From: Candidatus Moraniibacteriota bacterium
GTDB lineage: Bacteria; Patescibacteriota; Minisyncoccia; Moranbacterales; UBA2206
Length of the DNA stretch: 39,207 nucleotides
Direction: 5' to 3'
Assembly (NCBI GenBank): GCA_026396205.1
Contig: JAPLXF010000058.1
Location: 1 to 39,207 of the forward strand
Positions 9,212 to 26,432 of the stretch are shown here, in pieces (the first letter of the stretch is position 1; each line of letters opens with the position of its first letter). Made by a program: the position numbers and the translations under genes. The notes under the pieces were generated by a model, which made no database searches, was not told the origin of the DNA, and saw nothing but the letters and a program-made list of their open reading frames with translations.

Positions 9212-10433
9212 AATTGAACATCTTATCTATCTAATTATTTTTTTCTTGCCGGCGTATCTTTTGCGCTTTTATATCTTTGGAATTCCCACTAATGTTTTAG
9301 AAATATTAATTATTATTCTCGGGGTGGCTTGGCTGGCGGAAATAAAAAATGAAAATTTAAAAAGTTTTTGGCAGGAATACAAAAAAATAATTTTTTCTTT
9401 TTTGATTATAATTTTGGGCTTGCTGGCTTCCACTTTAATTAATAAAAATTATGCAACCGGGTTGGGAATTATCAAGGGCTGGTTTATTATCCCGTTTTTA
9501 TTTTTTTTGATTATCAAAACCGCGCTTCCGGATAAAGAAAAAGCGGTTAAAGCTTTTTATTATTCGGCGCTGGCCGTTTCCATGCTGGGAATAATTTACT
9601 ATGTTGCCGGCCGGCTGACTTTTGATGGCCGATTACAAATTTTTTTCAATTCGCCCAATTATTTGGCGATGTATCTGGCGCCGGCGGTGATAATCGGTGC
9701 GGTCAGATTCAATAAATCCCGCACCTTCTTACAGAATATTAAACTCCGTAGAAAGAACTTGCCTAATCCAATTATCTTCGAGTCAAACCATGAGAATTTC
9801 TGGAAGGTACGGGACAAGAAGCCGGTATTCTTTATTATTTCACTGGGGATTATACTATTAACTTTGTATCTCACTTTTTCCTACGCGGCCTGGGCGGCTT
9901 TATTTATAAGTTTGTTGGTTATTGAAATAGTGAAAGCTAAAAGAAGCTTTTTTCATTCAGGAATATTTAAAAGTACACTGATAATTTTTATTTTATTTTT
10001 ATTTTTGCAATTGGGCGGGAATAAATTCTATGATCTAAAAACACTGGCGGAAAGATCCTCTTTTTCTTCCCGAACAATGATTTGGAAATCGGCCGAAAAA
10101 ATACTTTCCGATAATTGGCTGTGGGGCATCGGGCCGGGCAATTTCCAAAATAGATATCTGGAATACCAACCATATTTCCCGCCTTATCTGGAGTGGGCGG
10201 TTCCCCATCCGCACAATCTTTTTCTTAATTTTTGGCTAAGCGGAGGCCTTTTGGCGCTGCTGGGATTTTTGGCCCTGCTTTATTTTTGGCTGAAAAGAAT
10301 TAAAAAACAAAAAAGCGATGTTTTCTTTTTCATCGCCTTGGGAATTATGCTGGCTATTTTAATTCAAGGGTTGGTGGACACCACTTTTTTCAAAAATGAT
10401 TTGGCCATTATTTTCTGGCTGGCTTTTCTATAA
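9195..10433 (+). CDS. O-antigen ligase/polymerase-like membrane protein (paralog)
   Basis: 412 aa and polytopic. Motifs: ERSSFSSRTMIWKSA, GIGPGNFQ and PHPHNLFLNFWLSGG. It overlaps the previous gene by 17 nt. Confidence 0.7.
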   Translation: MKKRLKIEHLIYLIIFFLPAYLLRFYIFGIPTNVLEILIIILGVAWLAEIKNENLKSFWQEYKKIIFSFLIIILGLLASTLINKNYATGLGIIKGWFIIPFLFFLIIKTALPDKEKAVKAFYYSALAVSMLGIIYYVAGRLTFDGRLQIFFNSPNYLAMYLAPAVIIGAVRFNKSRTFLQNIKLRRKNLPNPIIFESNHENFWKVRDKKPVFFIISLGIILLTLYLTFSYAAWAALFISLLVIEIVKAKRSFFHSGIFKSTLIIFILFLFLQLGGNKFYDLKTLAERSSFSSRTMIWKSAEKILSDNWLWGIGPGNFQNRYLEYQPYFPPYLEWAVPHPHNLFLNFWLSGGLLALLGFLALLYFWLKRIKKQKSDVFFFIALGIMLAILIQGLVDTTFFKNDLAIIFWLAFL

Positions 10434-11561
10434 ACCAATCCGGTAAAGCTTACTGTCGACCTTGTTGACAAAGAAAAGCTGGCTCTCGTCTGTGTTCAGG
10501 AAAAGATTAGCGGCGTCAAACTGACTTTCGATTTTTACCGGGTCAACTATCCTTTCTTTTTCTCCGGTTTTAACATCCGCTTTCCAAAAAGTATCGGTGG
10601 TTTTAAATTTTCCGCTCAAATAATCATTGGGTAAAATCATACCGGCCGGAATGGAAGCCGGCAGGGCGTAAAAAACCGTTTTATTGTCTTTCGACCAAAC
10701 GCATTTGGAAATAAATGTCGGAATGCCCAAACTGCGCAGTTCTCCACCATTACTGTTCATAGCCGAAAGCTGGATTTGCTGGCCGCCTCTTTCATTGGCA
10801 TGGCTGATTAAAACCGTTGATCCGTCCAGACTCCACAAATAATCCGCGCCGAATTTTCCGCCCAAAAGAGTTTTCTTTTCGCCCAATATCGAAGCGGATT
10901 GAAACTTGGTTTCCGTATAAGCATCCGGCTGGTTCCAGAAAGAAAGCAGGCCGGTTTGCGGAATGGGCGCGATGGCGATATCCCTGAATTCAACATCAGT
11001 CACCTTGCTCCAATTGGATCCATCGGGATCGGCGACGCTGATGTCGCGCTTTTTGCTGACCGGATCGTAGTATTTATAAAGAATCTTGGCATCATTCTGC
11101 CAGACAACCGTGTCAATATTATTTTTCAGCGGCACGCCAGTTTTTTCAGCGTAGTCATAATAGAAAAAAGTATTTTTTCCGGCGCCGGAAAATTGGGAAA
11201 TTACCTTGGTTCGGTCGGGCGACCAAAAAATTCCGGACAAGCCGGGCAGATCTTTATCGGAAAGTGTTTTTTTATTGATTCCGTCCAAATCAATTTCATA
11301 AGTTTTTCCATTTGGCGTGTAATATTTGATAGTCTTGTTTCTTTCGTCAAAAACCGGAGCCAAAACCGCTTCGTCGGATACCACCGGAATGCTTTTTTCC
11401 AGTTTTTTGACCTCCGCTACCGGAACTGTTTCCTCCAGTTTGACTGCCGGAACGGCCGGCGGCGCCGGTTTTCGGAAAACCAAAAAATAAATCCCCCAAA
11501 AAATGAGGACGATGGCCAGAAGGGCCGAAGAAAAAATAAAAAGTTTTTTGGATAAAGACAT
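10428..11561 (-). CDS. membrane-anchored beta-propeller protein (PD40/TolB-like repeats)
   Basis: N-terminal TM anchor (LFIFSSALLAIVLIFWGIYFLVF), then recurring blade motifs FWSPDRTKV, LWSLDGSTV and VWSKDNKTV. It lies 21 nt downstream of the pilin gene on the same strand. Confidence 0.6.
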   Translation of the reverse strand: MSLSKKLFIFSSALLAIVLIFWGIYFLVFRKPAPPAVPAVKLEETVPVAEVKKLEKSIPVVSDEAVLAPVFDERNKTIKYYTPNGKTYEIDLDGINKKTLSDKDLPGLSGIFWSPDRTKVISQFSGAGKNTFFYYDYAEKTGVPLKNNIDTVVWQNDAKILYKYYDPVSKKRDISVADPDGSNWSKVTDVEFRDIAIAPIPQTGLLSFWNQPDAYTETKFQSASILGEKKTLLGGKFGADYLWSLDGSTVLISHANERGGQQIQLSAMNSNGGELRSLGIPTFISKCVWSKDNKTVFYALPASIPAGMILPNDYLSGKFKTTDTFWKADVKTGEKERIVDPVKIESQFDAANLFLNTDESQLFFVNKVDSKLYRIGL

Positions 11562-11582
11562 TATTTTCTTATTAAATTATTT

Positions 11583-12452
11583 TTAGTTAAACACAACATG
11601 ATAATGGTCGCTGCCGTCGGTAAAATTGCAGCCGTAATTATATACTGGCGGATTACTGGAGGCGATGCAGGAAATATTCAAGCTTTTGTCAGTAGCGCCT
11701 TGTTTCAAGCAGGTTCCAAGGGCGTCGCTGGTGTTGCGTATGTCTACATTGGGCTTTCCCGGTCCGTGAGAGCTGTGTCCGCCTTCAGTTCCTCCGCTCA
11801 CGATTATAGCTCCGCATTTAGCGGCGACTTTTTTCAATCCATCGATGGCGTTTTGCGGCAATTGGCAAACGGTTGTGCATCCGCTTTGGTTTTGGGAAGA
11901 GCAGGTATTATTTTTTACAGTAACTCCTCCGCCGCTCTCTATTTGCTTCTTGGCGTCCTGATCGCATTTGGCAAATTCGGAATCGGAAACTTGCGGTTCT
12001 GTTCCGGCCGGAATAGGTTTACCCGCTCCGTCAGTTTTTCCTACTCCCACCGGCGTGCCCGCCCCCGTTGTCAGCGGTTTCATTTTAGTCAGATCAGGAT
12101 TGATAAAATAGAGAATAAGCCAAGCGGTTAAGGCCAGAATTAAGCCAATGATAGCGTCAGTAATATATTTCTTGGCTTTTTCCATCCCCGCATTATTACC
12201 GGCCGAAGCTACATACATATACCCTCCGATGATTATCATCGTCATGGCGCAGATAGATACAACCGCGATACCAAACTTGTAAATCGTATTGAGATAAGTA
12301 TAGAAATCCACTCCGGACGCAGAAGATTCCGCTTCATAACCAGGAATTTTTTCCATTGGCTGGTAACTGTAGCTTTGGGCGGAAACTAAAATCGGAGCCG
12401 CAAATAACAGCATAAACGATAATACAAGACACAATTTTCTAATATCTTTCAT
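11583..12452 (-). CDS. VirB2/TrbC-like (CPR T4SS-pilin type) protein with C-terminal Cys-rich domain carrying LAS/M15-like metallopeptidase motifs
   Basis: Signal peptide, then two TM helices with a short loop (FGIAVVSICAMTMIIIGGYMYVASAGNNAGMEKAKKYITDAIIGLILALTAWLILYFINP), the pattern of VirB2-type pilins. A Gly/Pro linker follows, then a 130-aa domain with SGGTEGGHSSHGPGKPNVDI and a terminal DHYH. Confidence 0.6.
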   Translation of the reverse strand: MKDIRKLCLVLSFMLLFAAPILVSAQSYSYQPMEKIPGYEAESSASGVDFYTYLNTIYKFGIAVVSICAMTMIIIGGYMYVASAGNNAGMEKAKKYITDAIIGLILALTAWLILYFINPDLTKMKPLTTGAGTPVGVGKTDGAGKPIPAGTEPQVSDSEFAKCDQDAKKQIESGGGVTVKNNTCSSQNQSGCTTVCQLPQNAIDGLKKVAAKCGAIIVSGGTEGGHSSHGPGKPNVDIRNTSDALGTCLKQGATDKSLNISCIASSNPPVYNYGCNFTDGSDHYHVVFN

Positions 12453-15400
12453 TGGAATATTCTGTAAATGACATTACCAGCCAAGAGGTGAATAAAATTA
12501 AGAGCGTAGTCAGAAAAATACGGAAGAGAAAGGCGAAATAAACGGGAAAGCCGGTGAAAAGAGTAGCCAGAATCTTTTGGCTCTGGGCTTTTATTCCCAC
12601 ATCAGTGGCGGGAGCTGCAATAACTTTGGCTTCAATTTCGCTGCCAATAGGCTTTTCATAAAATTGGTTAAAATCCACATTCCAGTTGTTGGCTAAAAAT
12701 TGCTTGGTGTTATTATCCTGCGAATAAATTCCGCCGAAGCTTATGGCATAAGAATCATTAATTGCTTTGTCAGTGTTGAAGATTAAAGTCGGCGCTTGGG
12801 TTTTTTCATCCACTCCCAATTTCACTCCCAAAGTTTGTTCGGCATAGGATTGCAAAGCTTTGGCAATATCGCTGTCCCCCACGGGAATAGTCATTCCATC
12901 GAAACTCCAAGAGGCTTGGTAGAGATTTTGGATCGGCATATTTACATTGGCCTTCAAGGTTACTGATTTATCAGCTTCCACTTCAAAAGAATCAGTGCTT
13001 TCATCCGGGTATTTTGTTCCATCAATGCCGACGAAAGTTCCCAATTGTTCCGGGTGGCATGAGGCCTTGCTTTCGTCCGCGCAGGCCAGAGAAACTTGCG
13101 GGTCGGTCACTTCAAAAGTGCGGGTCAAGTTGACCTTTTCGCCATCGGCATTGTTGGCAATCAGGGAAACGGAATATTGTTCGCCGGTATTTTTCAGCAC
13201 CGGAAAATAGGCTATATTGGTATTTTCAGAATTGCCCGAACAATTAGTTCCCTCCAAGCAGGGCAAAGGCTTGCCATCAAGAGTCCAAGCCATATCGGTC
13301 ATTTTGTTTTTTGTTTCGTCCACTTTCAGTCCGACAATTTGATTTTTCATCACCGGGCAGACAACGCCTTCAACTTGCGTGCGATCAGCGCATAGCCCAT
13401 TGCCGGTTCCGTCAACCAAGCTGATATTTCCGGAAGCATCAACCGCCGTCGGGAAGACTTTGATTTTTCCTCCGGTGCTGGACACGAGGATGAAAACATC
13501 AGCATTGCCTTCATTGGCTACGCCCTTAAAGATATTTTCTCTGACAGTCAAATGCACTTTCAAATAGAAGTTCCCTTTATAATCGGGAAAATTCAAGGGA
13601 AAACGAATGGAATCCAAACCGAAACCCGAAGTCTGCTTGAGCCCGGGAATTTGTGCTTTAGTCAAAGGCTTTCCGGTTTCCGCTCCGCTGATGTTGCCTT
13701 CCGAGTCAAGGTAGTTGATTTCCCAGTTGTATTTTAGGAAATTTTTGTCTTTGACATTGGAAACGGTGGAATTGATAATCAGTTCATCGCCCTCCGATTG
13801 CAAATAATCGCCTTTATAATCCGTTGAATCATTAATAGGGCTGTCCGGAGTGTAAGAAAGATTAACATCAACTTTGGCCGATTGTCCGCCTTCGGTCGGA
13901 TCAACCAAATTTTTTATTAAACAATCATTAATGTCTTTTTGGGTCATTTCGACAGTGGGAATTTTAACCGGGTAGCCCTTGACAATTATAGATTTTTCTC
14001 CAATCTTATCTTCGGGAACCTTGCAATCATTTTTAGGATAAGCCCACATAATCATTTTTGAGGAATCTTCATATTTGGTCGGCGTGATTCCCACTCCTTC
14101 CACTATCACGCCCACCTTGTCGCCCGCTTGATAAGTCCAAGTGAAAGAATCTTGTCCCAAACCCGCCACATTAGCCTCGTCCTTGTTGCCGTTATCGGCG
14201 GTGCTTGGATCATCCGGATTAGTGCGGAAGAAAAATTCTTCCAATTTATCATAATTATTATTGCCAATTCCAACCAAGCCTATATTCTGCCAGTCGGAGG
14301 CTCCGTTAAGTTTTTCACATAGCGATCCCAGATTCCAATAAGAAGACAGAACGGTGCATAATTTGCCATAATCATTGGCGTTAACTATAACGGGGAACTG
14401 ATGGCCGCAACCGGAAATCCAACCGCTGGTATTTTTTCTGACCATTTCATAATTTGTGCCGGTTCCAAAATCGTGAATATAGCATTTGGGCATTTGGTTA
14501 TAAAGTTTTTCTGCTTCTTTCTCTATCACTTCTCGAACGGCTTTTACCACTTTATCCCGAAATGCTCCCAATCCAGCCGCATTAATATGCAGATAAGGTT
14601 CCTGTAAGTCTAAGGTAAAAACATCTTGCCAATTAGTATTGTCGCGAATCGTATGAACAATTTGCGTAACCCAAGATAATACTTGTCCATCATCAAGCTT
14701 GAGCGCATCGGCAATTTGTGAATTACAGGTAGCAATTATACGGCTAATAAGTTTACTTGTAATCAAGTCTTTAATGGGCGTGGCTTTATCAGTATCAGTT
14801 CCTGCGTCATTTTCTTCGGTAACGGAAGCAATGCAGGTTATCAAATCGGCATATTTTCCCATATCATCCATCACATTGCCCCCTAACTTATTTTTTTGCT
14901 GGTCATCTCCGCCGAAAAAAGCCCTATAGCCATCACTATCCGCAGAAGAAACAGTTGAAAATTTATATTTATTATCCGCAGAACAAAAATCCGGCGGGCT
15001 GTCGACATCGCAAGTGCGCTGGTCTTTAGGCAAAAGCTTGTCATAGTCGTAGTTGCCCTTGCCCATCGCTCTTTTCCAATCGAAACCGTTGCCGGCAATA
15101 ATGCGCGAGGCTTCAATTTTCCATTCATTGGGGACAATTTTTAAATCCCCTCTGTGATTGATGTACCAAGTGTAATAAAGCGCTTTCATGTTCGCATTGC
15201 CGAAATACATCGGAACGGCGTTGGCAGTAATTTTTTCTCCCGGTTTGGGGCTGGCCGGATTAAAAACTATCGTTACCTGCGGAGCATCGGTTTTTTGGCT
15301 GGCGACATTGAAAGTTTCCCCCGCGTTTTGCATACTGATTGGATCAAGATGGTATCTTTGTTCAATTTCAGCGGCCACTTCACTGGGAGAAGGATAGACA

Positions 15401-15564: not shown

Positions 15565-15587
15565 TTGTTTTAAAACTATTGTATGTT

Positions 15588-17082: not shown

Positions 17083-17097
17083 CCCGCCGTGGCAGGG

Positions 17098-18853: not shown

Positions 18854-18858
18854 ATTTT

Positions 18859-19516: not shown

Positions 19517-19909
19517 CTATTTTCCTTGTTCCAACAATTTGGATATTTCGGTTATTTTCGCTTCGCTGATTTTTTTCTGTTCTTTTTTAGCGATTATTTT
19601 TTTTATTATTTTAGCCTTTTGGGCTTTTTCCGGAATTCTTTTCCAGAAATACAATTTAGGCTTGAAAACAAAAACAACGGACGAGGTAATAAAGGAAATC
19701 AGCGGCTGGTTATAGGGGCGGTAGAAGGCGAAAGCCCCGAAAATAGCGGCAATCGGGACGCAGGAGATAAAGAAAGCGCTGACATCCAGCAAGTTCCAAG
19801 TTACCAGCAATACCGCGCCCATACCGAACATCCAGCCTAGCTGTTTGGCAGTTAAAGGCCCAACAATCTTGTCTTCTTTATCAATAAATTGGGGAACATT
19901 GAACAGCAT
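19517..19909 (-). CDS. PrgI-family (VirB3-like) small membrane protein
   Basis: MLFNVPQFIDKEDKIVGPLTAKQLGWMFGMGAVLL plus a second TM is the PrgI-family pattern. It lies directly upstream of virB4. The preferred start is ATG 19909. The ORF-track extension to 19951 is a translation of the heptamer array. Confidence 0.8.
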   Translation of the reverse strand: MLFNVPQFIDKEDKIVGPLTAKQLGWMFGMGAVLLVTWNLLDVSAFFISCVPIAAIFGAFAFYRPYNQPLISFITSSVVFVFKPKLYFWKRIPEKAQKAKIIKKIIAKKEQKKISEAKITEISKLLEQGK

Positions 19910-19951: not shown

Positions 19952-19965
19952 GTTTCATTTTTTTA

Positions 19966-20334
19966 TTATTTTTTACTTTCAATTAATTTCCAGAGCATAG
20001 CTCCTATTTCATCCAAAAGACTCATAATTTCATCATATTCTTTTTTGCAAATATATTTTTCAGTATGCGAGAAATAAACCAGATATTTAGTTTCTTTCAA
20101 TGAGCCGTAGGAAATTTCCAAAAAATTTCTGTAGGAATTCCGGCTGTTTCTAGCATAGCCTTCTATATAGTTTAGTATAATTGAAAGCGCCGACCTTCTC
20201 AATTGGGAAGTTACTCCATAAATTTCTTCTTTTGGAAAGTTTTTAGTTTCAGAATATATTTTATGGATCACCAAATCCATTTTTATTTTTAAAGCATCAT
20301 GAAATCTTATTTTGTTTTCTGTTTTTTGCTTCAT
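19966..20334 (-). CDS. four-helix-bundle protein (23S rRNA intervening-sequence protein / Avd family)
   Basis: 122 aa. FPKEEIYGVTSQLRRSALSIILNYIEGYARNSRNSYRNFLEISYGSLKETKYLVYFS matches the family signature (sQlrRAa.Si..NIaEG...s..d...fl.ia.GS..E). Confidence 0.85.
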   Translation of the reverse strand: MKQKTENKIRFHDALKIKMDLVIHKIYSETKNFPKEEIYGVTSQLRRSALSIILNYIEGYARNSRNSYRNFLEISYGSLKETKYLVYFSHTEKYICKKEYDEIMSLLDEIGAMLWKLIESKK

Positions 20335-20377
20335 GTTATGTGTTATGTGCTATGTGTTCCATGTTACGTGTTCTATG
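20333..20377. repeat. tandem heptamer array in opposite orientation (ATGTTCC-like)n
   Basis: Units atgttat gtgttat gtgctat gtgttcc atgttac gtgttct atg. It fills the whole spacer between the stop of the 488-aa gene and the start of the four-helix-bundle gene. It is the reverse complement of the 19893..19951 array type. Confidence 0.8.
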
Positions 20378-21839
20378 ATTTCAAATTTACCACATTCCTG
20401 CCCATCTGTCTTTCGGGTTTAGTTGGCAGCTGGACTGGTGGATAGGAATTTTGGCTGGCACCGAAGACCGGTTCAATGCGTGAGGGAGTTTTTTGCATAG
20501 ATTTCAAATCAACAATTCTTTTGCCTCGGGAAATAGGCTCGCCCCGTGGAGGCGTAGCCTCTTTACGGGGTTCGGGGATATCCGGCGGCGGAGTTGGTAT
20601 GGAAACCGGCGGTTTTTGCGCTTGCCCCGTAGCGAACCCGGTTCTGCTACTGGGGGATTGGATAGCGGCTAATTTTTCTTCTATTTCCGAACCCAAGCCC
20701 GTTTCTCCAGTTGTTTTCAGGCGGTTTTTTTCAAAAGGCATTTTTTGCGGGGAAGAAAAACTCAAAGTTCCCAGCGAATCAATTTCATCTTCTTCTTTTT
20801 CTTCTTTTTCCGGCGCCTTAAAAGTCTCCGTCCCAATCGTCTCGCCGCGTGTCCCGCCTTGGCGGGATTTACGCGGCTCCCTGTCGAATGCTCCATATTC
20901 TGCATTATATGTCTGTCCCATTCTACTACTTGGGGCCGCGCCGCGTGGAGGCGTAGCCTCTTTACGCGGTTCTATGCTATGTGTTACGTGCTCCGTATTA
21001 CTTGTTCCATGTTCCATGTTATGTGTTCCATGCTCCATGAAAAAAATCTCCTTCCTATTCTCATCAACCGAAATTGGTGATTTTTCGTCTAGCGCTTTCA
21101 AAACCATGGCCAATTTCCGGCGCTCGTCCTCACTTAATTTAATAGTGTTTTTTTCTTGGAAAAGATAATGGCTGCGCGTCAGCTGGTCATGGTATTCGTA
21201 GCCGAGGTTGAAAGTATAATCGGCAATCCAGTTTTTAACCGAGGGCCGGACCGGATCGGGAAAACTTTTCAGAGTGATTTTGTCATTAGTAATCAATTGT
21301 TCGCCTAACTGGGGATATTTTTTCAGCGCTTCGACGATAGGCAGATTGACTAATTTGGGAATATAAACTTTTTTCTCTAAGACTTCCTTAGTTTCTCCAG
21401 CTTCCTCTTTAGTTAGTTCTTCTTTTTCTCTCATCAAATCGGCAATCCACGGTTCGGTAATTAAAACTTTTTGGTATAATTCTTCTTCAGATATTGGCGG
21501 CGGAGGCGGATTTATGCCCTTCCATTTTTCCAAAATCGGCTGGGCATTGGGAAATTGTTCCGGGAACCGGGCAAAAATTCTTTTGACAATTTCCTTAGCG
21601 ATGCCAAAAGCGGTATAGGAATTAACGCGGACATTATTTTGAATTGCCGCCGGCAAATTTTCTAAGGCAAAATCACCAACAAAAGCCAAACCAACCGAAC
21701 CTGTTATGTTAACGCTTAATTTTGGGTTAATGTTAAAATAAATTAAACTTTTTTTAATTTCTATCATTGGAGTATCTGAAATCGCCAAATTAAATATTTC
21801 CAGTGGTAATTTATTTAATTTTTCTGAAAAAGTAGCCAT
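20373..21839 (-). CDS. hypothetical cytoplasmic protein with repeat-derived, low-complexity C-terminal half
   Basis: 488 aa with no TM or signal peptide. The N-terminal 260 aa look ordered, with a PPPPP linker. The C-terminal half contains MEHGTHNMEHGTSNTEHVTHS (heptamer array) and two EPRKEATPPRG units (hairpin element). Confidence 0.75.
   Translation of the reverse strand: MATFSEKLNKLPLEIFNLAISDTPMIEIKKSLIYFNINPKLSVNITGSVGLAFVGDFALENLPAAIQNNVRVNSYTAFGIAKEIVKRIFARFPEQFPNAQPILEKWKGINPPPPPISEEELYQKVLITEPWIADLMREKEELTKEEAGETKEVLEKKVYIPKLVNLPIVEALKKYPQLGEQLITNDKITLKSFPDPVRPSVKNWIADYTFNLGYEYHDQLTRSHYLFQEKNTIKLSEDERRKLAMVLKALDEKSPISVDENRKEIFFMEHGTHNMEHGTSNTEHVTHSIEPRKEATPPRGAAPSSRMGQTYNAEYGAFDREPRKSRQGGTRGETIGTETFKAPEKEEKEEDEIDSLGTLSFSSPQKMPFEKNRLKTTGETGLGSEIEEKLAAIQSPSSRTGFATGQAQKPPVSIPTPPPDIPEPRKEATPPRGEPISRGKRIVDLKSMQKTPSRIEPVFGASQNSYPPVQLPTKPERQMGRNVVNLKS
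20542..20570. repeat. CCCCGTGG...TTTACGGGG hairpin element, copy 2 (inside CDS)
   Basis: The sequence is ccccgtggaggcgtagcctctttacgggg. On the minus strand it is translated as PRKEATPPRG. Confidence 0.7.
20941..21039. repeat. composite: hairpin element copy 3 (20941..20969) plus 10-unit heptamer array (20970..21039), inside CDS
   Basis: ccgcgtggaggcgtagcctctttacgcgg carries a compensatory C-G to G-C swap in the outer stem relative to copy 2. It is followed by ttctatg ctatgtg ttacgtg ctccgta ttacttg ttccatg ttccatg ttatgtg ttccatg ctccatg. With my boundaries the composite is 99 nt, or 33 codons. Confidence 0.7.
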
Positions 21840-21844
21840 TGTAT

Positions 21845-24208
21845 TTATAAATTTTTAAGAACATCATTATCATTTATATATTGTTGATGTCTTGGATCAC
21901 CTTTCATAACATTAATAATGTCACGTTGAATAGTCGTATTTTTCATTCTAGGCATTATTTCTCTTATTTGGCCATTCGATAAATTATCAGACCACTTTTG
22001 CCTCATTGCGGGAGTAACGCCAATAGTTTTGCCGCCCGAAAATCTTCGCAGAGTATCCGGGTTGCCATCTTTAATTATTTCATCCTGCATACTATCTCCT
22101 GCAGCACTTTCTGCAAATGCTCCAAACTTGCCTGTCATAGCTGTGTAAGATTTTTGTATGTCGCGGTGTATAGAGTTAGAAGAATCCTTGAATTTATAAT
22201 CTCTAGTTAGTGGATCAATGTAGTCGGCAATTTCTCCTGTAACTTTTTTAACAGTGTCTTTATATTTCTTCCTAACTTTTTCCCAATCAGGAGCCTTGAC
22301 AATGCCTTCCTCAGAAGCAATTCGCATCGTTTCTAGATTGCCAATAGAGTGCTCATTTTGTTTATTAACATCATATTGATTGCTATTGACAAAAGATCTT
22401 ATAGCTTGATCTCTCTTTGCCGGATCTAAATGATCAAAAGCGGCGGCAGTATCATTAATTTTCAGTTTATTATTAATTCGAGAAAATACTTGCGAGTTAT
22501 CACCAAAGGCTTTTCGCATCTTTTGATAATAAGTATCATCCGTATCAGGAACCCAATTGCCAGCAGCATTCTTTTTATATCTATTTAAGGATCCCTTATC
22601 AGCTAAAGCGATTAATCCAGCAGAGTAAACATCTTTATTACCACTGGCCATTAAGCTTCTAATATCAGGTTCAGCCATATCTTTCATATTGTAGCGTTCA
22701 TATTCTCCCTCTACCCTTTTAAGCTGATCTTTTTGAAATCTATTTCTAGCATCCATAACACCCCTCCAACCAGGAGCAATTTTTGAACGGGCCCAATCCT
22801 GTCGACTACCGGTCCATGTTCCCATCCGATTGGCCCAACCTTCAGTGGTGGTTTCATCTCTTCTTTTGCGGTAGGCTTTCCAGCCTCGGTGGGCGAAACT
22901 AAGTCCGGAAGCCCATTTGCCGAATTGTTTGGCGCGTCTTTTAACGGTTTCAGCTCCGGCAATACTCATTGATTGGGCAAAACCGATGCCGATCCAAAGA
23001 ATAACGATCGGAATAGCATAGAAAGTGAAAGCGCCAATTACATTAGAAGCAGTATAAGGATCCGTAGTAAATTTATGACCAGTGCTGCCCCATGTGGCAC
23101 CTATTTTTTGCATCATCGAAGTGGCGACATAAAGCATAAAGATCTGAATCGGTCCGAAAAAAGAATACTTAAAAAGATAGTCCCAAAACTGACCGACTTT
23201 CAAAGCCTTTTCTGATTTAGAGGAAGGAATAATAGCGCCGACAAAAGCCACCGGAGAAAAGATGATGAGAATAGTCAGTACAATGGTTCGAATGACTAAA
23301 AGTATAGAAATGGAAAGTAGGGTAATCATAAAAATGAAGAAAAAAATCACCAGCATAATTAAATAAGAAGTATCCGCCTTCCCCGGTACAATATTTTTGA
23401 TTATGTCTCCTAAGCCCGCATCTCTAGCCATGGAAGAAGCAAAACTGTTTATGTCAGTACTTTTTACAAGAAGAGTGTTGATAAGCGTGTACATCAAAAC
23501 ATTAGAAAAATCAATAATTACCCGGACAATGGGATAGCTGAAATTAACCAAAAGCGCCATTATGATAGTTCGGAAAAGAATGCTCCGAAAGCTGTATTTT
23601 TCCACTTGGAAAATAGTGGCAAAAGCGCAAAAAAGCAAAACCAGAATAAAAGCCAAATTGAGAAAATCGCGGACTTGTGACCAAATAGTGTAATTAATTC
23701 GATTATCCATTATATTTCTAACCATTTCCGGATTAACAATTGCGCTAAATAATGCTCCTGCCAAATCTAGAAATTGACTCTCGGCTTTAAGTACGGATAA
23801 GAGAGAGCAATCAACCGGATGCAAAAGCCAGACGCTCCATTCACCTATCACGCCTTCGCAAATTTTTACATCATTACTATTTGTTCCTGTTTGAGTTTCA
23901 TAAGATGTTTTTGTTTCTATCCCATTGGTTTTTGTGTCTCCTAAAGTTCCAGATGTATAAAATTTTCCAGGTTCATATTCTGTTTCTGTACATTTTTTAG
24001 AACAAGAAGCATCATCAGCAAAATCTCCTGGTATGGTTTGTGTTATAAATTCAGTTGGTTTATTGCCGCCAAGTACAATTTTTTTACACATGCAAGATTT
24101 TGCTTCTGCTTTTTCCGCCTTTCCCAAAAACAAAAAACACGCCGCGGTTAAAAATAAAAACAGCAGAAGCGATTGGGAAAGTTTGGATTTTTTACAGATA
24201 ATATGCAT
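21845..24208 (-). CDS. VirB6/TrbL/TcpH-like polytopic membrane protein with Cys-rich N-terminal ectodomain and large C-terminal soluble domain
   Basis: Signal/TM segment, then a Cys-rich segment (KSCMCKK..SCSKKCTE), at least 7 TM helices (residues about 150-470), and a 330-aa W/R/K-rich tail. This is the size and architecture of Gram-positive VirB6 analogues, and it sits in a virB4 neighbourhood. The preferred start is ATG 24208 (MHIICKK), because upstream codons lie in a repeat. Confidence 0.5.
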   Translation of the reverse strand: MHIICKKSKLSQSLLLFLFLTAACFLFLGKAEKAEAKSCMCKKIVLGGNKPTEFITQTIPGDFADDASCSKKCTETEYEPGKFYTSGTLGDTKTNGIETKTSYETQTGTNSNDVKICEGVIGEWSVWLLHPVDCSLLSVLKAESQFLDLAGALFSAIVNPEMVRNIMDNRINYTIWSQVRDFLNLAFILVLLFCAFATIFQVEKYSFRSILFRTIIMALLVNFSYPIVRVIIDFSNVLMYTLINTLLVKSTDINSFASSMARDAGLGDIIKNIVPGKADTSYLIMLVIFFFIFMITLLSISILLVIRTIVLTILIIFSPVAFVGAIIPSSKSEKALKVGQFWDYLFKYSFFGPIQIFMLYVATSMMQKIGATWGSTGHKFTTDPYTASNVIGAFTFYAIPIVILWIGIGFAQSMSIAGAETVKRRAKQFGKWASGLSFAHRGWKAYRKRRDETTTEGWANRMGTWTGSRQDWARSKIAPGWRGVMDARNRFQKDQLKRVEGEYERYNMKDMAEPDIRSLMASGNKDVYSAGLIALADKGSLNRYKKNAAGNWVPDTDDTYYQKMRKAFGDNSQVFSRINNKLKINDTAAAFDHLDPAKRDQAIRSFVNSNQYDVNKQNEHSIGNLETMRIASEEGIVKAPDWEKVRKKYKDTVKKVTGEIADYIDPLTRDYKFKDSSNSIHRDIQKSYTAMTGKFGAFAESAAGDSMQDEIIKDGNPDTLRRFSGGKTIGVTPAMRQKWSDNLSNGQIREIMPRMKNTTIQRDIINVMKGDPRHQQYINDNDVLKNL

Positions 24209-24218
24209 TTTGTATATT

Positions 24219-24341
24219 GTCATTCCGCACCCCAAGTCATACGACGGGGTAAACTTGATGCGGAATCTAGTAAATAAAACAAAATTATTGGACTGGATCC
24301 CGGATCAGGTCCGGGATGACATTTGTGTAGCTCGGGATGAC
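24219..24341. repeat. dual-hairpin MITE-like element, copy C (extended)
   Basis: The sequence is gtcattccgcacccc...ggggtaaacttgatgcggaatctag...ggactggatcccggatcaggtccgggatgac, plus an extra half-site ctcgggatgac. The ORF-track entry 24033..24389 (WIPDQVRDD) is its artefact. Confidence 0.75.
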
Positions 24342-24346: not shown

Positions 24347-25336
24347 CTACTGCCTTAAATTGACAGAACTTTGGCTATTGTATCTCTGAGGCGGAGTTTG
24401 CGTTTTTTGCGCTTGGGTTTTTTGGCTGTTAACTCTGGTAGTTTCCTTAGAAACATTTTGGGATGCGTTGCCGATGCCTTGATTGAGGGTTTTTGTCATA
24501 ATTTGGGAAACGACGGCTGTGATAACTTCCGGCATATGGGTGGCGCCAGCCAGAATTTTATTGCCCAAATCTTGTGTATTGGAATAAATGTCTTTGACGG
24601 TGGAACCAGGCGTGACGGTTTTGCCGTTCTGCTCTTTGCCGATAAAGCCTTGCCCAGCAATGCCTTTATTAGTATTAATCAGAGTCTGTAAATTTATCTC
24701 TTTTTGGTGCTCGTCTTGGATATAATTATTGAAAGCCCAAGGATTGTTGATTCCGGAAACATAGGACAATAAATTACTCATTCCATTTTTGGGATCCTTA
24801 AACATATCTCCCGGATTGCCTTTATAGTTCATTTGTGGCGCTTTCTTTTCCGTAGTGGAAGCTTTGGCCATTTGCTGCAAGCCTTGAGAATAGGACGACG
24901 AGGAACCGGAGATGGAAGATTTGGATTTGGAAGAAAAGCCTTCGGAAGAACTGCCGGCTGGCGCGTAAGAAAAGCTGCCGCGCCCACTTAAAGATCGATC
25001 GATAAGGTTGTTAGTATATTTATTGGCTTTATTTTCTGGATCGGTTTTTGTCCAGGCTAGCCAGTCGGTAATAAACATAGCTCCTCCGCTGCCGCTAATC
25101 ATAACGCTGATTTGGCTATTCAGGGTGCTGGCGGCAGTTTGTTTCAAAACTCCCAAAATTATGCCCTGTAACTGGTTAAAAATAACTTCCAGCGCTTGTT
25201 TCATAATTTCAGCCGGCGCCGCGTCCCAAGCATAAGCCGGCCGAGCTAAGTTCGGAGAGAAAACCAAAGACAAAGAAATAAGCAAAACCGCCATCCCTCG
25301 AATTAAAAATAATTTTTTCCTTTTTTGATTTTTCAT
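24347..25336 (-). CDS. hypothetical secreted protein (Ser-rich central region)
   Basis: The preferred start is ATG 25336 (MKNQKRKKLFLIRGMAVLLISLSLVFSPNLARPAYA, a signal peptide), 1 nt after the upstream stop. There is a central SSSEGFSSKSKSSISGSSSS tract. I recognise no family. Confidence 0.7.
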   Translation of the reverse strand: MKNQKRKKLFLIRGMAVLLISLSLVFSPNLARPAYAWDAAPAEIMKQALEVIFNQLQGIILGVLKQTAASTLNSQISVMISGSGGAMFITDWLAWTKTDPENKANKYTNNLIDRSLSGRGSFSYAPAGSSSEGFSSKSKSSISGSSSSYSQGLQQMAKASTTEKKAPQMNYKGNPGDMFKDPKNGMSNLLSYVSGINNPWAFNNYIQDEHQKEINLQTLINTNKGIAGQGFIGKEQNGKTVTPGSTVKDIYSNTQDLGNKILAGATHMPEVITAVVSQIMTKTLNQGIGNASQNVSKETTRVNSQKTQAQKTQTPPQRYNSQSSVNLRQ

Positions 25337-25337
25337 T

Positions 25338-26432
25338 TTAAGGTGATGTTGTTCCGATGCCAACTGTTGCCGTGCCGCCGACTCCGACTGTTGCGGTACT
25401 GCCAATGCCTAAATTATCCAGCACGGCCGGGTCGACTCCCATCTGTTCGATTTTTTGTTTGAGAACATCAGTGTAATCTATTCCCAATTCGGAAAATTTA
25501 CTCTGCAGTTCCGACATAAAAGCCATCATAGTTTCCATCAGGCCTTGCATCTTGGAAAAATTGGCGATGTCAGCCATCGGGTCTTCCGGATTGGGAGCGA
25601 TGCGGTCCTTAAGAATTATGGCGTATTTGGCAAATTGCAAAGCTTTGGTATGGATGCCGACCAAATCTTCCGGCACCTCCACGGCTTTCAATTGATCTAA
25701 TATTTTTTGCCCGCTGGCGGCGACATCATTCAAAAGCGCCGGCTCGCGATTGGTCAGCGCCGAGGTTATACTGCCTGTGATAGAACTCAAAAAAGTATCC
25801 AGTTTTCCGGAAGTCAAAGGCGCGGGAGAGTTGCTGGAGAAAATATAGAAAACCGAAGCGATGTAAGTGGAAAAATCTTCCTGCTTTTGCTGTTTTAATT
25901 TTTCCGCGGATAAATTTTTAGTGTTGGCTTTTTTGATTTTAATTTCGTCCGGAGAAATAGCCGGCAGATCTTCAGCGCCTATATCTTTATTGACAACCTC
26001 ATCAGTTAATTGCTGAATCTGATCGATGGAAATTTGCTGATTTTCCGGATCAGTCGTGTTCATCAATTGGGTAACTTTTTGGGCGACTTGGTTGGTGATG
26101 TTGGGCTTGGCTTCCGTGCCATTTGCAGAGGCTGATGGCGCCGAAACCGAAGTTGCTTCCGCTGTAAATAATTTGTCGCCCGGCGCCGGTTTTAAGGGAT
26201 TATAGCCGCTGCGCACTTCCACCCCGTCGGAATAGCCGTCGCCGTCCGTGTCGCGGTTTTGCGGGTCGGTGCCGTAAGATTTTTCTTCCGCGTCAGTCAA
26301 TCCGTCCTGGTCGGAATCCAAAAAGATATTGGCGTTGAAAGGCTTTTCCTGCGCCACTGAAAAAAAGGAAAAACTCAAGGCAAACAAACACGCCAATACA
26401 AACAAAGTTGGTTTGAGATTACTGATTTTCAT
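25338..26432 (-). CDS. hypothetical secreted protein with thrombospondin type-3-like Ca-binding repeats
   Basis: Signal peptide (LFVLACLFALSFSFFSVAQE), then DSDQDGLTDAEEKSYGTDPQNRDTDGDGYSDGVE (DxDxDG repeats). The remainder is helical. It is the first gene of the block. Confidence 0.75.
   Translation of the reverse strand: MKISNLKPTLFVLACLFALSFSFFSVAQEKPFNANIFLDSDQDGLTDAEEKSYGTDPQNRDTDGDGYSDGVEVRSGYNPLKPAPGDKLFTAEATSVSAPSASANGTEAKPNITNQVAQKVTQLMNTTDPENQQISIDQIQQLTDEVVNKDIGAEDLPAISPDEIKIKKANTKNLSAEKLKQQKQEDFSTYIASVFYIFSSNSPAPLTSGKLDTFLSSITGSITSALTNREPALLNDVAASGQKILDQLKAVEVPEDLVGIHTKALQFAKYAIILKDRIAPNPEDPMADIANFSKMQGLMETMMAFMSELQSKFSELGIDYTDVLKQKIEQMGVDPAVLDNLGIGSTATVGVGGTATVGIGTTSP

What the first reader, a model, noticed from the sequence alone, without database searches (positions are those of the whole stretch)
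10428..26432. CPR-style type IV secretion-like block with mostly unassignable parts and no DNA-processing genes
Twelve co-directional minus-strand genes are tightly spaced or overlapping: 14-nt and 8-nt overlaps, and a 1-nt stop-start gap.

**Recognisable core**
- PrgI/VirB3-like protein (VPQFIDKEDKIVGPLTAKQL).
- VirB4 ATPase (KSGAGKS, IIIDPENEY, RKYYTGLTTITQD).
- An approximately 790-aa VirB6/TcpH-like polytopic protein.
- A VirB2-type pilin.

**No T4SS role I can assign**
- Two signal-peptide proteins at the operon head, one with thrombospondin-3 Ca repeats.
- A 488-aa cytoplasmic protein.
- A 184-aa membrane protein.
- A CPBP-like protein.
- A 1041-aa anchored surface protein.
- A TolB-like propeller.

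**Missing**
- I see no VirD4 coupling ATPase, relaxase, VirB11 or VirB8/9/10 in the window.

So this is not a conventional conjugation module. An envelope-spanning machine for host contact, DNA uptake or effector delivery in an episymbiont is a reasonable but unproven reading.
Basis: partly seen in the sequence, partly recalled or inferred. Interest (0 to 1): 0.8.

Follow-up and report, generated by a model that had tools for sequence, protein, structure and literature searches.

The report
Patescibacterial T4SS locus with broken ATPase
This is the chromosomal type IV secretion gene cluster already described for ultrasmall Patescibacteria (CPR), here in a Moranbacteria-like contig, so it is not a new kind of machine; what stands out is that its two motor genes (trsD-like and virB4) each carry a frame-breaking deletion in this sequence.

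Summary
The co-directional minus-strand block (10428-26432) is real, and its recognisable parts check out:
- PrgI/VirB3 and a VirB2-type pilin pass Pfam cut-offs.
- There is a VirB4 ATPase.
- The extended VirB6 is supported through orthologues and a predicted fold.

No coupling protein, relaxase or VirB11 is present in the 39-kb contig.

This is the Patescibacteria T4SS already published in 2023-2025: chromosomal, near dnaA and ksgA, relaxase-less, with a TrsD-like gene before virB4.

- "VirB4" is two genes, trsD-like plus virB4. Both are broken here, by 152-nt and 101-nt out-of-frame deletions. The second removes Walker B.
- All 80 related loci and the 120 best database homologues have intact genes.
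- One "operon" gene is an inserted 23S-rRNA-IVP cassette.

Across 80 Moranbacteria loci the whole block is collinear in about 58, but so are the housekeeping flanks. In 22 more distant loci only pilin-PrgI-TrsD-VirB4 plus the 184-aa membrane protein stay together. That 184-aa protein is therefore the only unassigned ORF with strong linkage to virB4.

Verdict: a new member of a known kind. The motor is dead as sequenced, or the contig is misassembled.

The parts
25338..26432 (-). g01: secreted 364-aa protein with bacterial thrombospondin-3 (Ca-binding) repeats; first gene of the block
   Evidence: Pfam TSP3_bac at 1.5e-15. It has an N-terminal hydrophobic segment. It is syntenic in 43 of 56 loci with enough upstream sequence, which is every arrangement-A locus. 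No profile hit was found in arrangement B.
24347..25336 (-). g02: 329-aa signal-anchored protein, unassigned
   Evidence: There is no hit in Pfam, NCBIfam or PDB, either for the single sequence or for a 35-sequence profile. It is syntenic only in arrangement A.
21845..24223 (-). g03: extended VirB6/TrbL-like polytopic membrane protein (about 790 aa), with a large helical C-terminal domain
   Evidence: - The window protein gives only TrbL_4 at E = 0.27.
- Orthologues P0158 (31.1 bits) and P0211 (28.9 bits) pass the Pfam TrbL cut-off of 25.9.
- hhalign places the same motif region against pSK41 TrsL (E = 0.0032) and pCF10 PrgH (E = 0.035).
- The AlphaFold2 model has pLDDT 80.5. Its only target-sized structural match is R388 TrwI/VirB6 (7o3v_J): probability 0.98, TM-score normalised to the target 0.55, E = 0.73.
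20373..21839 (-). g04: 488-aa protein without hydrophobic segments, unassigned. Its 3' half is remodelled, with a heptamer array and a 34-nt repeat inside the ORF.
   Evidence: There is no Pfam or PDB hit for it or for 35 orthologues. It has a conserved core (...FPEPVRPSIKNWLADYTF...). It is syntenic only in arrangement A. Repeats are listed.
19966..20334 (-). Inserted 23S_rRNA_IVP / bAvd-like four-helix-bundle gene, bracketed by inverted heptamer arrays (19907-19955 and 20321-20377). Not a T4SS part.
   Evidence: Pfam 23S_rRNA_IVP at 1e-28. It is absent from this site in 79 of 80 related loci. Inverted repeats I9/I10 flank it. Other loci show the same design with different heptamers.
19517..19906 (-). 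PrgI/VirB3-like membrane protein. The likely start is MLFNVPQF at 19906; the ORF itself runs up to 19951 through the heptamer array.
   Evidence: Pfam PrgI at 6.3e-9, above the cut-off. It is present in 56 of 56 loci with enough upstream sequence. Relatives start at M-x-FN(I/V)PQFID.
18859..19393 (-). TrsD-like gene, disrupted. A 152-nt deletion between 19154 and 19153 shifts the frame, leaving ORF pieces 19124-19393 and 18859-19062.
   Evidence: - Three-frame translation and DNA alignment with six relatives show the lesion.
- It is a single 226-231-aa ORF in 77 of 77 relatives.
- The profile aligns end to end with pSK41 TrsD: 183 columns, E = 1.6e-4.
17098..18853 (-). virB4 ATPase gene, disrupted. 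A 101-nt deletion between 17485 and 17484 removes about 33 codons, including Walker B, and shifts the frame. Walker A (KSGAGKS) is retained.
   Evidence: - Searches show the lesion.
- Relatives encode 606-616 aa in one ORF.
- The 120 best database homologues are 587-630 aa.
- The deleted segment aligns to VLVVDEAW of the solved VirB4 ATPase domain 4AG5.
16328..16882 (-). g09: 184-aa membrane protein of an unnamed family. It is the only unassigned ORF that stays directly downstream of virB4 in both gene arrangements.
   Evidence: - A profile HMM finds it next to virB4 in 21 of 22 arrangement-B loci.
- The family has 68 database proteins, with no Pfam hit and no informative name.
- The AlphaFold2 model is a helical membrane bundle (pLDDT 67.7) with no PDB match.
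- Conserved positions are D59, K72, D73, D76, P144 and R161.
15673..16341 (-). g10: 222-aa polytopic protein, weakly CPBP-like (glutamic intramembrane protease family)
   Evidence: NCBIfam CPBP archaeomyxosortase MrtA at E = 4.4e-6. The match is full-length but scores 27 bits against a cut-off of 200. There is no Pfam hit. It is found only in arrangement A.
12439..15564 (-). g11: 1041-aa surface protein with a signal peptide and a conserved C-terminal membrane anchor, unassigned
   Evidence: There is no Pfam or PDB hit for it or its profile. A few orthologues give weak PKD or Ig hits. The C-terminal motif P-x-Y-x-A-F-L-F-R is conserved. It is found only in arrangement A.
11583..12452 (-). g12: VirB2-type T4SS pilin domain (aa ~51-117) fused to a Cys-rich C-terminal domain (aa ~170-289) of an undescribed family
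   Evidence: - Pfam T4SS_pilin at 3.2e-7, above the cut-off. NCBIfam pilin-like conjugal transfer protein at 3e-5.
- At the same position, 13 of 35 orthologues carry SLT and 7 of 35 carry SLT_3 instead.
- The window's C-terminal domain has 449 representative relatives.
- Eight residues are invariant or nearly so (97-100% of 106 homologues): C184, C192, E223, H226, H229, D237, H283 and H285.
- It has no PDB or Pfam match.
10428..11561 (-). g13: 377-aa N-terminally anchored protein, weakly TolB/beta-propeller-like; last gene of the block
   Evidence: NCBIfam PA2928 family at 3.5e-6 and propeller_TolB at 2.9e-4, both far below their cut-offs. There is no Pfam hit. It is found only in arrangement A.

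Best explanation
**What it is.** The block is the chromosomal, origin-proximal type IV secretion locus typical of Patescibacteria, in its Moranbacteria (Paceibacteria) form.

**Core genes.**
- An extended VirB6-like channel protein.
- PrgI/VirB3.
- A TrsD-like protein.
- The VirB4 ATPase.
- A small VirB4-linked membrane protein (g09).
- A VirB2-type pilin.

In related genomes the core has the order pilin, VirB3, TrsD, VirB4, the same as trsB-trsC-trsD-trsE of staphylococcal pSK41/pGO1.

**How it would work (inferred from the families).**
- VirB4, with TrsD, docks on VirB3/VirB6 in the membrane.
- It energises assembly of a pilin-based conduit through the cell wall.
- The domain fused to the pilin opens the wall locally. 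This domain is a lytic transglycosylase in most orthologues.
- With no coupling protein or relaxase nearby, the cargo is not conjugative DNA. It is more likely proteins or host macromolecules exchanged with a host cell.

**Other genes.** g01, g02, g04, g10, g11 and g13 are lineage-specific envelope proteins. They share the operon in one Moranbacteria clade, but their membership of the machine is unproven.

**State in this contig.** The trsD-like gene and virB4 each carry an out-of-frame internal deletion, and virB4 loses Walker B. As sequenced, the locus cannot make a working motor. It is either a very recently inactivated copy or variant, or the contig is wrong at these two points.
For: **Identity**
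- Pfam PrgI, T4SS_pilin and VirB4 P-loop domains.
- TrsD-like profile against pSK41 TrsD: E = 1.6e-4 over 183 columns.
- VirB6: orthologues pass the Pfam TrbL cut-off, and the model matches TrwI/VirB6 with probability 0.98 and TM-score normalised to the target 0.55.
- The solved VirB4 domain 4AG5 matches an intact orthologue at E = 4.5e-50.

**Context**
- dnaN, dnaA, rnpA, yidC and jag lie at 62-4787, ksgA at 28247-29110, and there is no GC break.
- PMC12102498 reports the same context for Paceibacteria.

**No DNA-processing genes**
- None was hit in the window ORFs I scanned.

**Conservation**
- 80 related loci from different species-level genomes were compared.
- PrgI, TrsD and VirB4 are present in every locus with sequence there (56 of 56).
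- pilin and g09 also accompany virB4 in both arrangements.

**Lesions**
- Three-frame translation.
- Alignment with six relatives shows gaps of exactly 152 and 101 nt.
- 77 of 77 relatives have an intact TrsD-like ORF, and all have virB4 ORFs of about 610 aa.
- The 120 best homologues are 587-630 aa.
- The other nine block genes checked show no comparable lesion, and the housekeeping genes give full-length Pfam matches.

**Literature**
- The T4SS is essential in Southlakia and its function is unknown.
- Possible T4SS pili were seen at a parasite-host interface.
Against: - Whether the deletions exist in the organism is unproven. Logan contigs from run SRR20698649 are 100% identical to the window at 10242-15618, 19283-20539 and 28211-30233, and a fourth carries g10 and most of g09. 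None spans either junction.
- Apart from the two deletions, all four remaining reading-frame pieces are open and about as conserved as in relatives. That fits either a very recent event or an artefact.
- The window's VirB6-like protein itself fails Pfam, and the Foldseek E-value is 0.73.
- No VirB8-like component or, in this window, recognisable cell-wall hydrolase was found.
- The substrate and the direction of transport are not addressed by any result here.
Confidence: 0.8

Rival explanations
1. The locus is intact and functional in the organism. On this reading the two deletions are errors of assembly or consensus, or a minority deletion variant picked up by the assembler.
For: - Outside the two gaps, no stop codons or further frameshifts exist in about 760 codons.
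- All 80 relatives and the 120 best homologues are intact, so the genes are under strong purifying selection in the clade.
- The T4SS is essential in the one Patescibacterium tested.
- An independent assembly of the run is fragmented in exactly this region.
Against: - Neither junction has a shared repeat longer than about 3-5 nt, so a k-mer assembler should need real junction reads to join them.
- The rest of the contig shows no frameshifted housekeeping gene.
- Both lesions fall within 2.3 kb of a 39-kb contig, which looks non-random.
Confidence: 0.4
2. Only the five-gene core (pilin, PrgI, TrsD-like, VirB4, g09), plus VirB6, is the secretion system. On this reading g01, g02, g04, g10, g11 and g13 are unrelated envelope genes that merely sit in a conserved neighbourhood.
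For: - In the 22 arrangement-B loci, profile HMMs of g01, g02, g04, g10, g11 and g13 find nothing within 10 kb of virB4, while pilin, PrgI, TrsD, VirB4 and g09 stay together.
- In arrangement A the housekeeping flanks (KsgA, UbiA, Wzy x2) are just as collinear as the unassigned ORFs, so synteny there carries little functional weight.
- Profiles of g01, g02, g04, g10 and g13 have no counterpart among 21 pCF10/pSK41 transfer proteins.
Against: - Spacing is tight or overlapping (5-nt, 1-nt and 14-nt junctions) and all genes share one strand in about 58 species-level genomes.
- All but g04 are envelope or secreted proteins, as expected for accessory parts.
- In L060 the VirB6 homologue lies only 10.8 kb from virB4, so 'absent within 10 kb' does not mean unlinked.
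Confidence: 0.4
3. The block is a decaying remnant of an integrated conjugative element rather than a resident chromosomal system.
For: The ATPase genes are disrupted. VirB4, TrsD and PrgI are homologous to monoderm plasmid transfer genes.
Against: - The same locus sits at the same chromosomal position (KsgA/UbiA on one side, Wzy on the other) in dozens of species-level genomes.
- No integrase, relaxase, T4CP or tRNA target is present.
- GC content is continuous with the flanks.
- The other genes are intact.
Confidence: 0.03
4. The machine imports rather than exports. On this reading it is a ComB-like uptake system for host DNA or RNA that feeds a nucleotide-auxotrophic epibiont.
For: - It lacks a T4CP and relaxase, as the Helicobacter ComB system does (own knowledge; the analogy is drawn in PMC11665869).
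- A 2026 preprint links VirB4 and possible T4SS pili to host RNA acquisition in a related lineage.
- comM and pnp lie in the same window.
Against: Nothing in the sequence indicates direction or cargo. ComEC-dependent competence was dispensable in Southlakia while the T4SS was essential, which does not identify the cargo.
Confidence: 0.15

Closest known systems
Patescibacteria-clade T4SS (Quinonero-Coronel et al. 2025, PMC12102498; Southlakia epibionticum T4SS, Wang et al. 2023 as cited in PMC12857230)
   Same: - The gene set is VirB4 with a TrsD homologue just upstream, PrgI/VirB3, VirB6, and VirB2-like pilin(s) of Pfam PF18895.
- It is chromosomal.
- It lies near dnaA/dnaN, rnpA and ksgA.
- No relaxase or T4CP is adjacent.
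   Different: - Here trsD-like and virB4 are interrupted.
- There is a single pilin gene, fused to an extra C-terminal domain, rather than a tandem pilin array.
- Six clade-specific ORFs share the operon.
- An IVP cassette is inserted before prgI.
pGO1/pSK41 trs conjugation genes of Staphylococcus (MPF-FATA subclass)
   Same: - The gene order trsB (VirB2/CagC-like), trsC (VirB3-like), trsD, trsE (VirB4) matches pilin, PrgI, TrsD-like, VirB4 in the arrangement-B relatives.
- TrsD is 227 aa against 226-231 aa here, with an end-to-end profile alignment at E = 1.6e-4.
   Different: - pSK41 also has a T4CP (TrsK), relaxase, TrsG CHAP hydrolase, topoisomerase and SSB, and it is a plasmid.
- Homology of the pilin to TrsB and of g09 to TrsF was not detectable.
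pCF10 prg/pcf T4SS of Enterococcus (PrgH-PrgI-PrgJ-PrgK-PrgL)
   Same: PrgI family membership holds. VirB4/PrgJ-type ATPase domains are present. The VirB6-like protein aligns weakly to the PrgH motif region.
   Different: No PrgK-type hydrolase, PrgL/PrgD VirB8-like protein, PrgB adhesin or PcfC coupling protein is detectable.
R388 TrwI/VirB6 and 'extended VirB6' proteins
   Same: The transmembrane core of g03 superposes on TrwI with TM-score normalised to the target of 0.55. Its large hydrophilic C-terminal domain fits the 'extended VirB6' class described in PMC12857230.
   Different: Sequence similarity is at the detection limit. The N-terminal Cys-rich beta element and the 330-aa helical C-terminal domain have no identified relative.
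Helicobacter pylori ComB DNA-uptake T4SS
   Same: Both are T4SS-derived systems without a coupling protein or relaxase. ComB has been suggested as a functional analogy in the literature.
   Different: ComB is a diderm VirB2-4/6-10 system. No sequence comparison was made here, so this is an analogy only.

Membership tests
Patescibacteria-clade T4SS (MPF-FATA-related) | VirB4-family ATPase gene | tested here: met
   P-loop_TraG at 8e-20, plus DUF87, TraC_F_IV and AAA_10. The 120 best homologues are named VirB4 or TraC by their sources. An orthologue matches the 4AG5 VirB4 domain at E = 4.5e-50.
Patescibacteria-clade T4SS (MPF-FATA-related) | TrsD homologue encoded next to virB4 | tested here: met
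   A separate 226-231-aa ORF lies directly upstream of virB4 in 77 of 77 relatives. Its profile aligns with pSK41 TrsD at E = 1.6e-4 over 183 columns, with probability only 50%. The window copy is disrupted.
Patescibacteria-clade T4SS (MPF-FATA-related) | VirB3/PrgI homologue near virB4 | tested here: met
   Pfam PrgI at 36.7 bits against a cut-off of 27.
Patescibacteria-clade T4SS (MPF-FATA-related) | VirB6/TrbL homologue near virB4 | tested here: met
   The evidence is indirect. The window protein is below threshold (TrbL_4, E = 0.27). Orthologues P0158 and P0211 pass the PF04610 cut-off. The model matches TrwI/VirB6 with probability 0.98 and TM-score normalised to the target 0.55, but E = 0.73.
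Patescibacteria-clade T4SS (MPF-FATA-related) | VirB2-like pilin (PF18895) near virB4 | tested here: met
   T4SS_pilin at 30.8 bits against a cut-off of 26.6. 31 of 35 orthologues also hit it.
Patescibacteria-clade T4SS (MPF-FATA-related) | Chromosomal location, often near dnaA/dnaN/rnpA/ksgA; no relaxase close to virB4 | tested here: met
   dnaN, dnaA, rnpA, yidC and ksgA are in the window, and no relaxase or T4CP family was hit in the ORFs scanned. The feature is as described in PMC12102498.
Patescibacteria-clade T4SS (MPF-FATA-related) | VirB4 falls inside the monophyletic Patescibacteria VirB4 clade | not tested
   No phylogeny was built. All 80 nearest loci are Moranbacteria, Parcubacteria or Patescibacteria MAGs by record title (a few are mislabelled Bdellovibrionales).
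Functional VirB4 motor ATPase | Walker A motif | tested here: met
   AKSGAGKS is present in ORF 17327-18853.
Functional VirB4 motor ATPase | Walker B motif (hhhhDE) and an uninterrupted reading frame | tested here: not met
   A 101-nt deletion removes the segment that aligns to VLVVDEAW of 4AG5, and it shifts the frame.
Conjugative MPF-FATA T4SS (pCF10 / pSK41 type) | VirD4/TcpA-type coupling protein | tested here: not met
   None was hit in the ORFs scanned in the 39-kb contig. One elsewhere in the genome cannot be excluded.
Conjugative MPF-FATA T4SS (pCF10 / pSK41 type) | Relaxase / oriT | tested here: not met
   No relaxase family was hit in the ORFs scanned in the contig. oriT was not searched.
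Conjugative MPF-FATA T4SS (pCF10 / pSK41 type) | VirB8-like component (PrgL/PrgD/TraM) | tested here: inconclusive
   Profiles of g01, g02, g04, g09, g10 and g13 against PrgL, PrgD and 19 other pCF10/pSK41 proteins gave a best E of 0.0037 in 126 tests, on short hydrophobic stretches.
Conjugative MPF-FATA T4SS (pCF10 / pSK41 type) | Dedicated peptidoglycan hydrolase (VirB1/PrgK/TrsG) | tested here: inconclusive
   20 of 35 orthologous pilin proteins carry SLT or SLT_3 domains. The window's pilin carries a different domain with conserved E, H, H, D, H, H positions but no Pfam or PDB match.
CPBP intramembrane protease family (g10) | Curated family score; conserved EExxxR and His motifs | tested here: inconclusive
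   NCBIfam CPBP MrtA at E = 4.4e-6, 27 bits against a cut-off of 200. There is no Pfam hit. By eye the sequence has YEMFFRG, with a single Glu.
TolB-type beta-propeller (g13) | Curated family score | tested here: inconclusive
   TIGR02800 at E = 2.9e-4, 19.9 bits against a cut-off of 343. PA2928 family at 3.5e-6, 26.6 bits against 70.

The most novel reading that the evidence does not exclude
**Proposed reading.** Moranbacteria run an enlarged, 12-gene version of the Patescibacteria T4SS. In it:
- The unnamed g09 membrane protein is an obligate VirB4 partner.
- The pilin carries interchangeable cell-wall-hydrolase heads. These are SLT, SLT_3, or the undescribed Cys/His-rich domain seen here.
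- A CPBP-like protease (g10) processes the adjacent C-terminally anchored 1041-aa surface protein (g11) as part of the host-contact apparatus.

**Possible implication.** This contig would also capture a natural motor-dead variant. That would imply the system is dispensable under some conditions.
Probability: 0.2. Interest if true: 0.55.

Novelty: new member of a known kind. Interest (0 to 1): 0.3.

Why it matters
- The Patescibacteria T4SS is essential in the one species tested, and its cargo is unknown. Well-annotated examples from other classes help define which parts are universal.
- This comparison narrows the invariant Moranbacteria core to pilin, PrgI, TrsD, VirB4 and g09. It flags g09 as an unnamed candidate subunit.
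- It shows that the pilin gene carries swappable wall-hydrolase-type domains. That may explain why separate VirB1 genes are rarely found.
- The broken trsD and virB4 genes, if real, would be a natural loss-of-function allele of a supposedly essential machine. If artefactual, they are a caution for automated T4SS calls in MAGs.
- None of this changes the category. The system itself is already described.

Tried and rejected
- **Stop-codon recoding or frameshifting to rescue VirB4.** Rejected. The pieces lie in different frames and the missing Walker B segment is physically absent.
- **'Split VirB4'.** Partly rejected. The upstream ORF is a separate, conserved TrsD-like gene. The match to the PrgJ N-terminus was not significant (E = 0.14), while the match to pSK41 TrsD was.
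- **Independent support for the deletion junctions.** Not obtained.
  - Exact-protein look-ups of the 508-, 130-, 89- and 184-aa products found nothing.
  - Four Logan contigs were retrieved. Three aligned at 100% identity, but none covers a junction.
  - Two JGI metagenome scans, one for the junction and one for the flank, found nothing.
- **Assigning g02, g04, g09 and g11.** Failed with Pfam, NCBIfam and PDB profile searches. hhalign of g01, g02, g04, g09, g10 and g13 against pCF10 and pSK41 proteins also found nothing. Foldseek of the g09 model found nothing.
- **LAS/M15 metallopeptidase guess for the pilin C-terminal domain.** Not supported by Pfam or PDB. It is kept only as an inference from the conserved His/Asp/Glu pattern.
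- **Promoter and terminator scan.** Counts were near the shuffled expectation, so it was uninformative.
- **Rfam and tRNA scans.** Nothing was found.
- **First hhalign batch.** It timed out and was re-run in reduced form.

Full report
**1. Observation**

The window is a complete 39,207-nt contig (P0001). From 26432 down to 10428 all substantial ORFs lie on the minus strand.

- g11 and g12 overlap by 14 nt (12439-12452).
- g09 and g10 overlap by 8 or 14 nt, depending on the ATG used.
- The stop at 25338 and the ATG at 25336 are separated by 1 nt.

Pfam confirms TSP3 repeats in the first gene, PrgI (above cut-off), T4SS_pilin (above cut-off) and VirB4-type P-loop domains. A simple hydropathy scan agrees with the stated signal peptides, anchors and polytopic proteins.

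**2.

Three-frame translation of 17050-19520 shows the VirB4-like sequence spread over four ORF pieces in alternating frames.

In related genomes this region holds two genes:
- A 226-231-aa ORF ending ...LDLK*.
- A 606-616-aa virB4 starting MLDFLKKK....

In 77 of 77 related loci the first is a single ORF, and all relatives have a full-length virB4 ORF. DNA alignment with six relatives shows clean gaps in the window:
- 152 nt, between coordinates 19154 and 19153.
- 101 nt, between coordinates 17485 and 17484.

Neither gap length is a multiple of three.

The 101-nt gap removes the segment LQFIWNEMR...LV(L/A)DEAW...DDAAS. In an intact orthologue this segment aligns with VLVVDEAW, the Walker B motif of the solved Thermoanaerobacter VirB4 ATPase domain 4AG5 (E = 4.5e-50 overall).

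The 120 best database homologues are 587-630 aa. The window's own 508-aa product is the only truncated one, and its nearest relative is 85% identical. The other nine block genes checked show no comparable lesion. Housekeeping genes on the contig give full-length domain matches.

**3. Are the deletions real?**

I could not decide this.
- Four Logan contigs assembled from run SRR20698649 carry exact window proteins. Three were aligned and are 100% identical to the window, at 10242-15618, 19283-20539 and 28211-30233. The fourth covers g10 and most of g09.
- None spans a junction.
- The exact truncated products are not on record.
- Scans of JGI metagenomes for the junction and for its flank found nothing.

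In favour of real deletions, the junctions share only 3-5 nt of microhomology. A k-mer assembler should therefore need junction-spanning reads. Both lesions also fall within 2.3 kb of a 39-kb contig.

In favour of an artefact or a very recent event, there is no other defect in about 760 remaining codons, and the genes are strongly conserved in all relatives.

I put roughly 55-60% on the deletions being present in at least part of the population.

**4. Identity of the parts**

- **TrsD-like ORF.** Its profile aligns end to end with TrsD of pSK41, which is 227 aa and sits directly upstream of the VirB4 homologue TrsE. The alignment covers 183 columns at E = 1.6e-4.
- **VirB6-like protein (g03).** On its own the roughly 790-aa protein fails Pfam (TrbL_4, E = 0.27).
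  - Orthologues found with its family profile pass the TrbL/VirB6 cut-off (P0158 at 31.1 bits, P0211 at 28.9 bits, cut-off 25.9).
  - Its profile aligns at the same motif region to pSK41 TrsL (E = 0.0032) and pCF10 PrgH (E = 0.035).
  - An AlphaFold2 model (pLDDT 80.5) has the R388 VirB6 homologue TrwI as its only target-sized structural match: probability 0.98, TM-score normalised to the target 0.55, E = 0.73.
  - With its 330-residue helical C-terminal domain it fits the 'extended VirB6' type.
- **g10.** It gives a full-length but far sub-threshold match to a CPBP protease model.
- **g13.** It gives weak TolB and PA2928 propeller matches.
- **g02, g04, g11.** They have no detectable relatives in Pfam, NCBIfam or PDB, alone or as profiles, and no consistent family across 30-35 orthologues for g04 and g11.
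- **Comparison with prototype plasmids.** None of g01, g02, g04, g09, g10 or g13 resembles any of 21 pCF10 or pSK41 transfer proteins.
- **Gene at 19966-20334.** It is a 23S_rRNA_IVP/bAvd-family gene, not a secretion component.

**5. Comparative test of linkage**

A genome-collection scan returned 80 loci from different species-level MAGs, nearly all labelled Moranbacteria, Parcubacteria or Patescibacteria. Their VirB4 identity to the window is 63-81%. Two arrangements occur.

- **Arrangement A** (about 58 loci, VirB4 70-81% identical) is collinear with the window across the whole block. It is also collinear across the flanks: G5, KsgA, UbiA, then g01 to g13, then Wzy, Wzy, GT.
- **Arrangement B** (22 loci, VirB4 63-71% identical) reads pilin, pilin, PrgI, TrsD, VirB4, g09, ComM, G5, KsgA.
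  - Profile HMMs built from arrangement-A orthologues of g01, g02, g04, g10, g11 and g13 find nothing within 10 kb.
  - The VirB6 homologue appears once, 10.8 kb away, after a LysM protein.

It is met strongly for one ORF, the 184-aa membrane protein g09.
- g09 was found next to virB4 in 21 of 22 arrangement-B loci.
- It belongs to an unnamed family of 68 database proteins with no Pfam domain.
- Its model is a helical membrane bundle with no structural match.

**6. Pilin**

The N-terminal pilin domain is highly conserved. The C-terminal domain differs among orthologues at the same position.
- 13 of 35 carry SLT and 7 of 35 carry SLT_3 lysozyme-like domains.
- The window's version carries another domain, with 449 representative relatives, often behind a T4SS_pilin domain.
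- That domain has eight invariant or nearly invariant residues (97-100% of 106 homologues): C184, C192, E223, H226, H229, D237, H283 and H285.
- It has no Pfam or PDB relative.

A metal-dependent wall hydrolase is my inference, not a result. The papers I read do not mention such pilin-hydrolase fusions.

**7. Context and the literature**

The contig carries dnaN, dnaA, rnpA, yidC and jag at its left end, and ksgA, comM, lspA, pnp and fabH to the right. GC content is continuous across the block. No tRNA or Rfam element is present.

PMC12102498 describes this picture for Patescibacteria:
- VirB4 of an MPF-FATA-related clade.
- TrsD as the most frequent partner.
- PrgI/VirB3, VirB6 and VirB2-like pilins nearby.
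- Relaxases almost always absent.
- T4CP genes rarely nearby.
- Loci near dnaA, dnaN, rnpA and ksgA.

A 2025 review and a 2024 perspective state that the system is essential in Southlakia epibionticum and that its function is unknown. Effector delivery and nucleic-acid uptake are the proposals. A 2026 preprint reports possible T4SS pili at a parasite-host interface.

**8. Mechanism**

Shown here: the homology of the parts, their arrangement and the lesions.

Inferred from the families:
- VirB4 with TrsD docks on VirB3/VirB6.
- It drives assembly of a VirB2-type filament or conduit through the wall.
- This is helped by the hydrolase-type domain fused to the pilin.
- Surface proteins mediate host contact.
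- The cargo is not relaxase-processed DNA.

As encoded in this contig, the ATPase lacks Walker B and is frameshifted, so the machine cannot be energised.

**9. Verdict**

This is a correctly spotted but already described system: a new member of a known kind. The useful additions are:
- The disrupted motor genes.
- A narrowed invariant core that includes the unnamed g09 family.
- Domain swapping on the pilin.
- An IVP cassette bracketed by heptamer arrays.

Noticed in passing
window 19907-20377 (and 20955-21039); L004 ~8300-9050; L053 ~7330-8020; L076 ~11720-12420: - The 122-aa 23S_rRNA_IVP/bAvd-like gene is bracketed by inverted arrays of 7-nt repeats: (CATGGAA)n at 19907-19955 and its complement at 20321-20377.
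- IVP genes in three related loci have the same design with different heptamers: CAATGAG... paired with ...TCATTGT, and TTAGCTT... paired with ...AAGCTAA.
- They sit at two different insertion sites.
- This looks like a small mobile cassette enclosed by a stem, reminiscent of rRNA intervening sequences.
   Followed up: partly
window 20373-21839 (g04), especially 20540-20573, 20939-21039: The g04 ORF contains a third heptamer array, translated as MEHGTHNMEHGTSNTEH. It also contains a 34-nt direct repeat 399 nt apart, and two copies of the C-terminal ...VDLKS / ...VNLKS motif. This suggests that cassette insertion was followed by partial duplication of the gene's 3' end.
   Followed up: no
window 11583-12090 (C-terminal domain of the pilin protein); orthologues in L003-L054: - Orthologous pilin proteins carry different C-terminal domains at the same locus: SLT in 13 of 35, SLT_3 in 7 of 35.
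- The window carries an undescribed Cys-rich domain with conserved E, H, H, D, H, H positions.
- That domain has 449 representative relatives, often behind a T4SS_pilin domain.
   Followed up: partly
L053, L055, L057, L059-L063, L065-L072, L074-L077, L079, L080: In these more distant Moranbacteria the core module (pilin, pilin, PrgI, TrsD, VirB4, g09) sits on the other side of ComM-G5-KsgA. Upstream of it lie a methyltransferase-like gene and a lipoprotein gene of about 490 aa. This indicates a translocation of the five-gene core relative to the window's arrangement.
   Followed up: partly
window 19399-19510: The PrgI to trsD-like intergenic region is a 52-nt-arm inverted repeat, 77% complementary, built from TAATTTC-type heptamers. 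Relatives have variable spacers of 5-200 nt, some with their own repeats, between trsD and virB4.
   Followed up: no
L003 ~9035-9100 and ~9921-9990: The same sequence of about 60 nt, which translates as FDGSSLKL.FRTT, occurs upstream of both trsD-like and virB4 in this relative. It may be a repeated intergenic element.
   Followed up: no
window 62-4787 and 28247-37409: The contig is origin-proximal, carrying dnaN, dnaA, rnpA, yidC and jag. It also carries comM (30245-31795) and pnp (35292-37409) near the T4SS block. Several public record titles of related MAGs label them 'uncultured Bdellovibrionales', although their neighbours are Moranbacteria-type, so those labels look wrong.
   Followed up: no
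window 33894-35105: A 403-aa minus-strand ORF with no Pfam match at E <= 0.001. It was not examined further.
   Followed up: no
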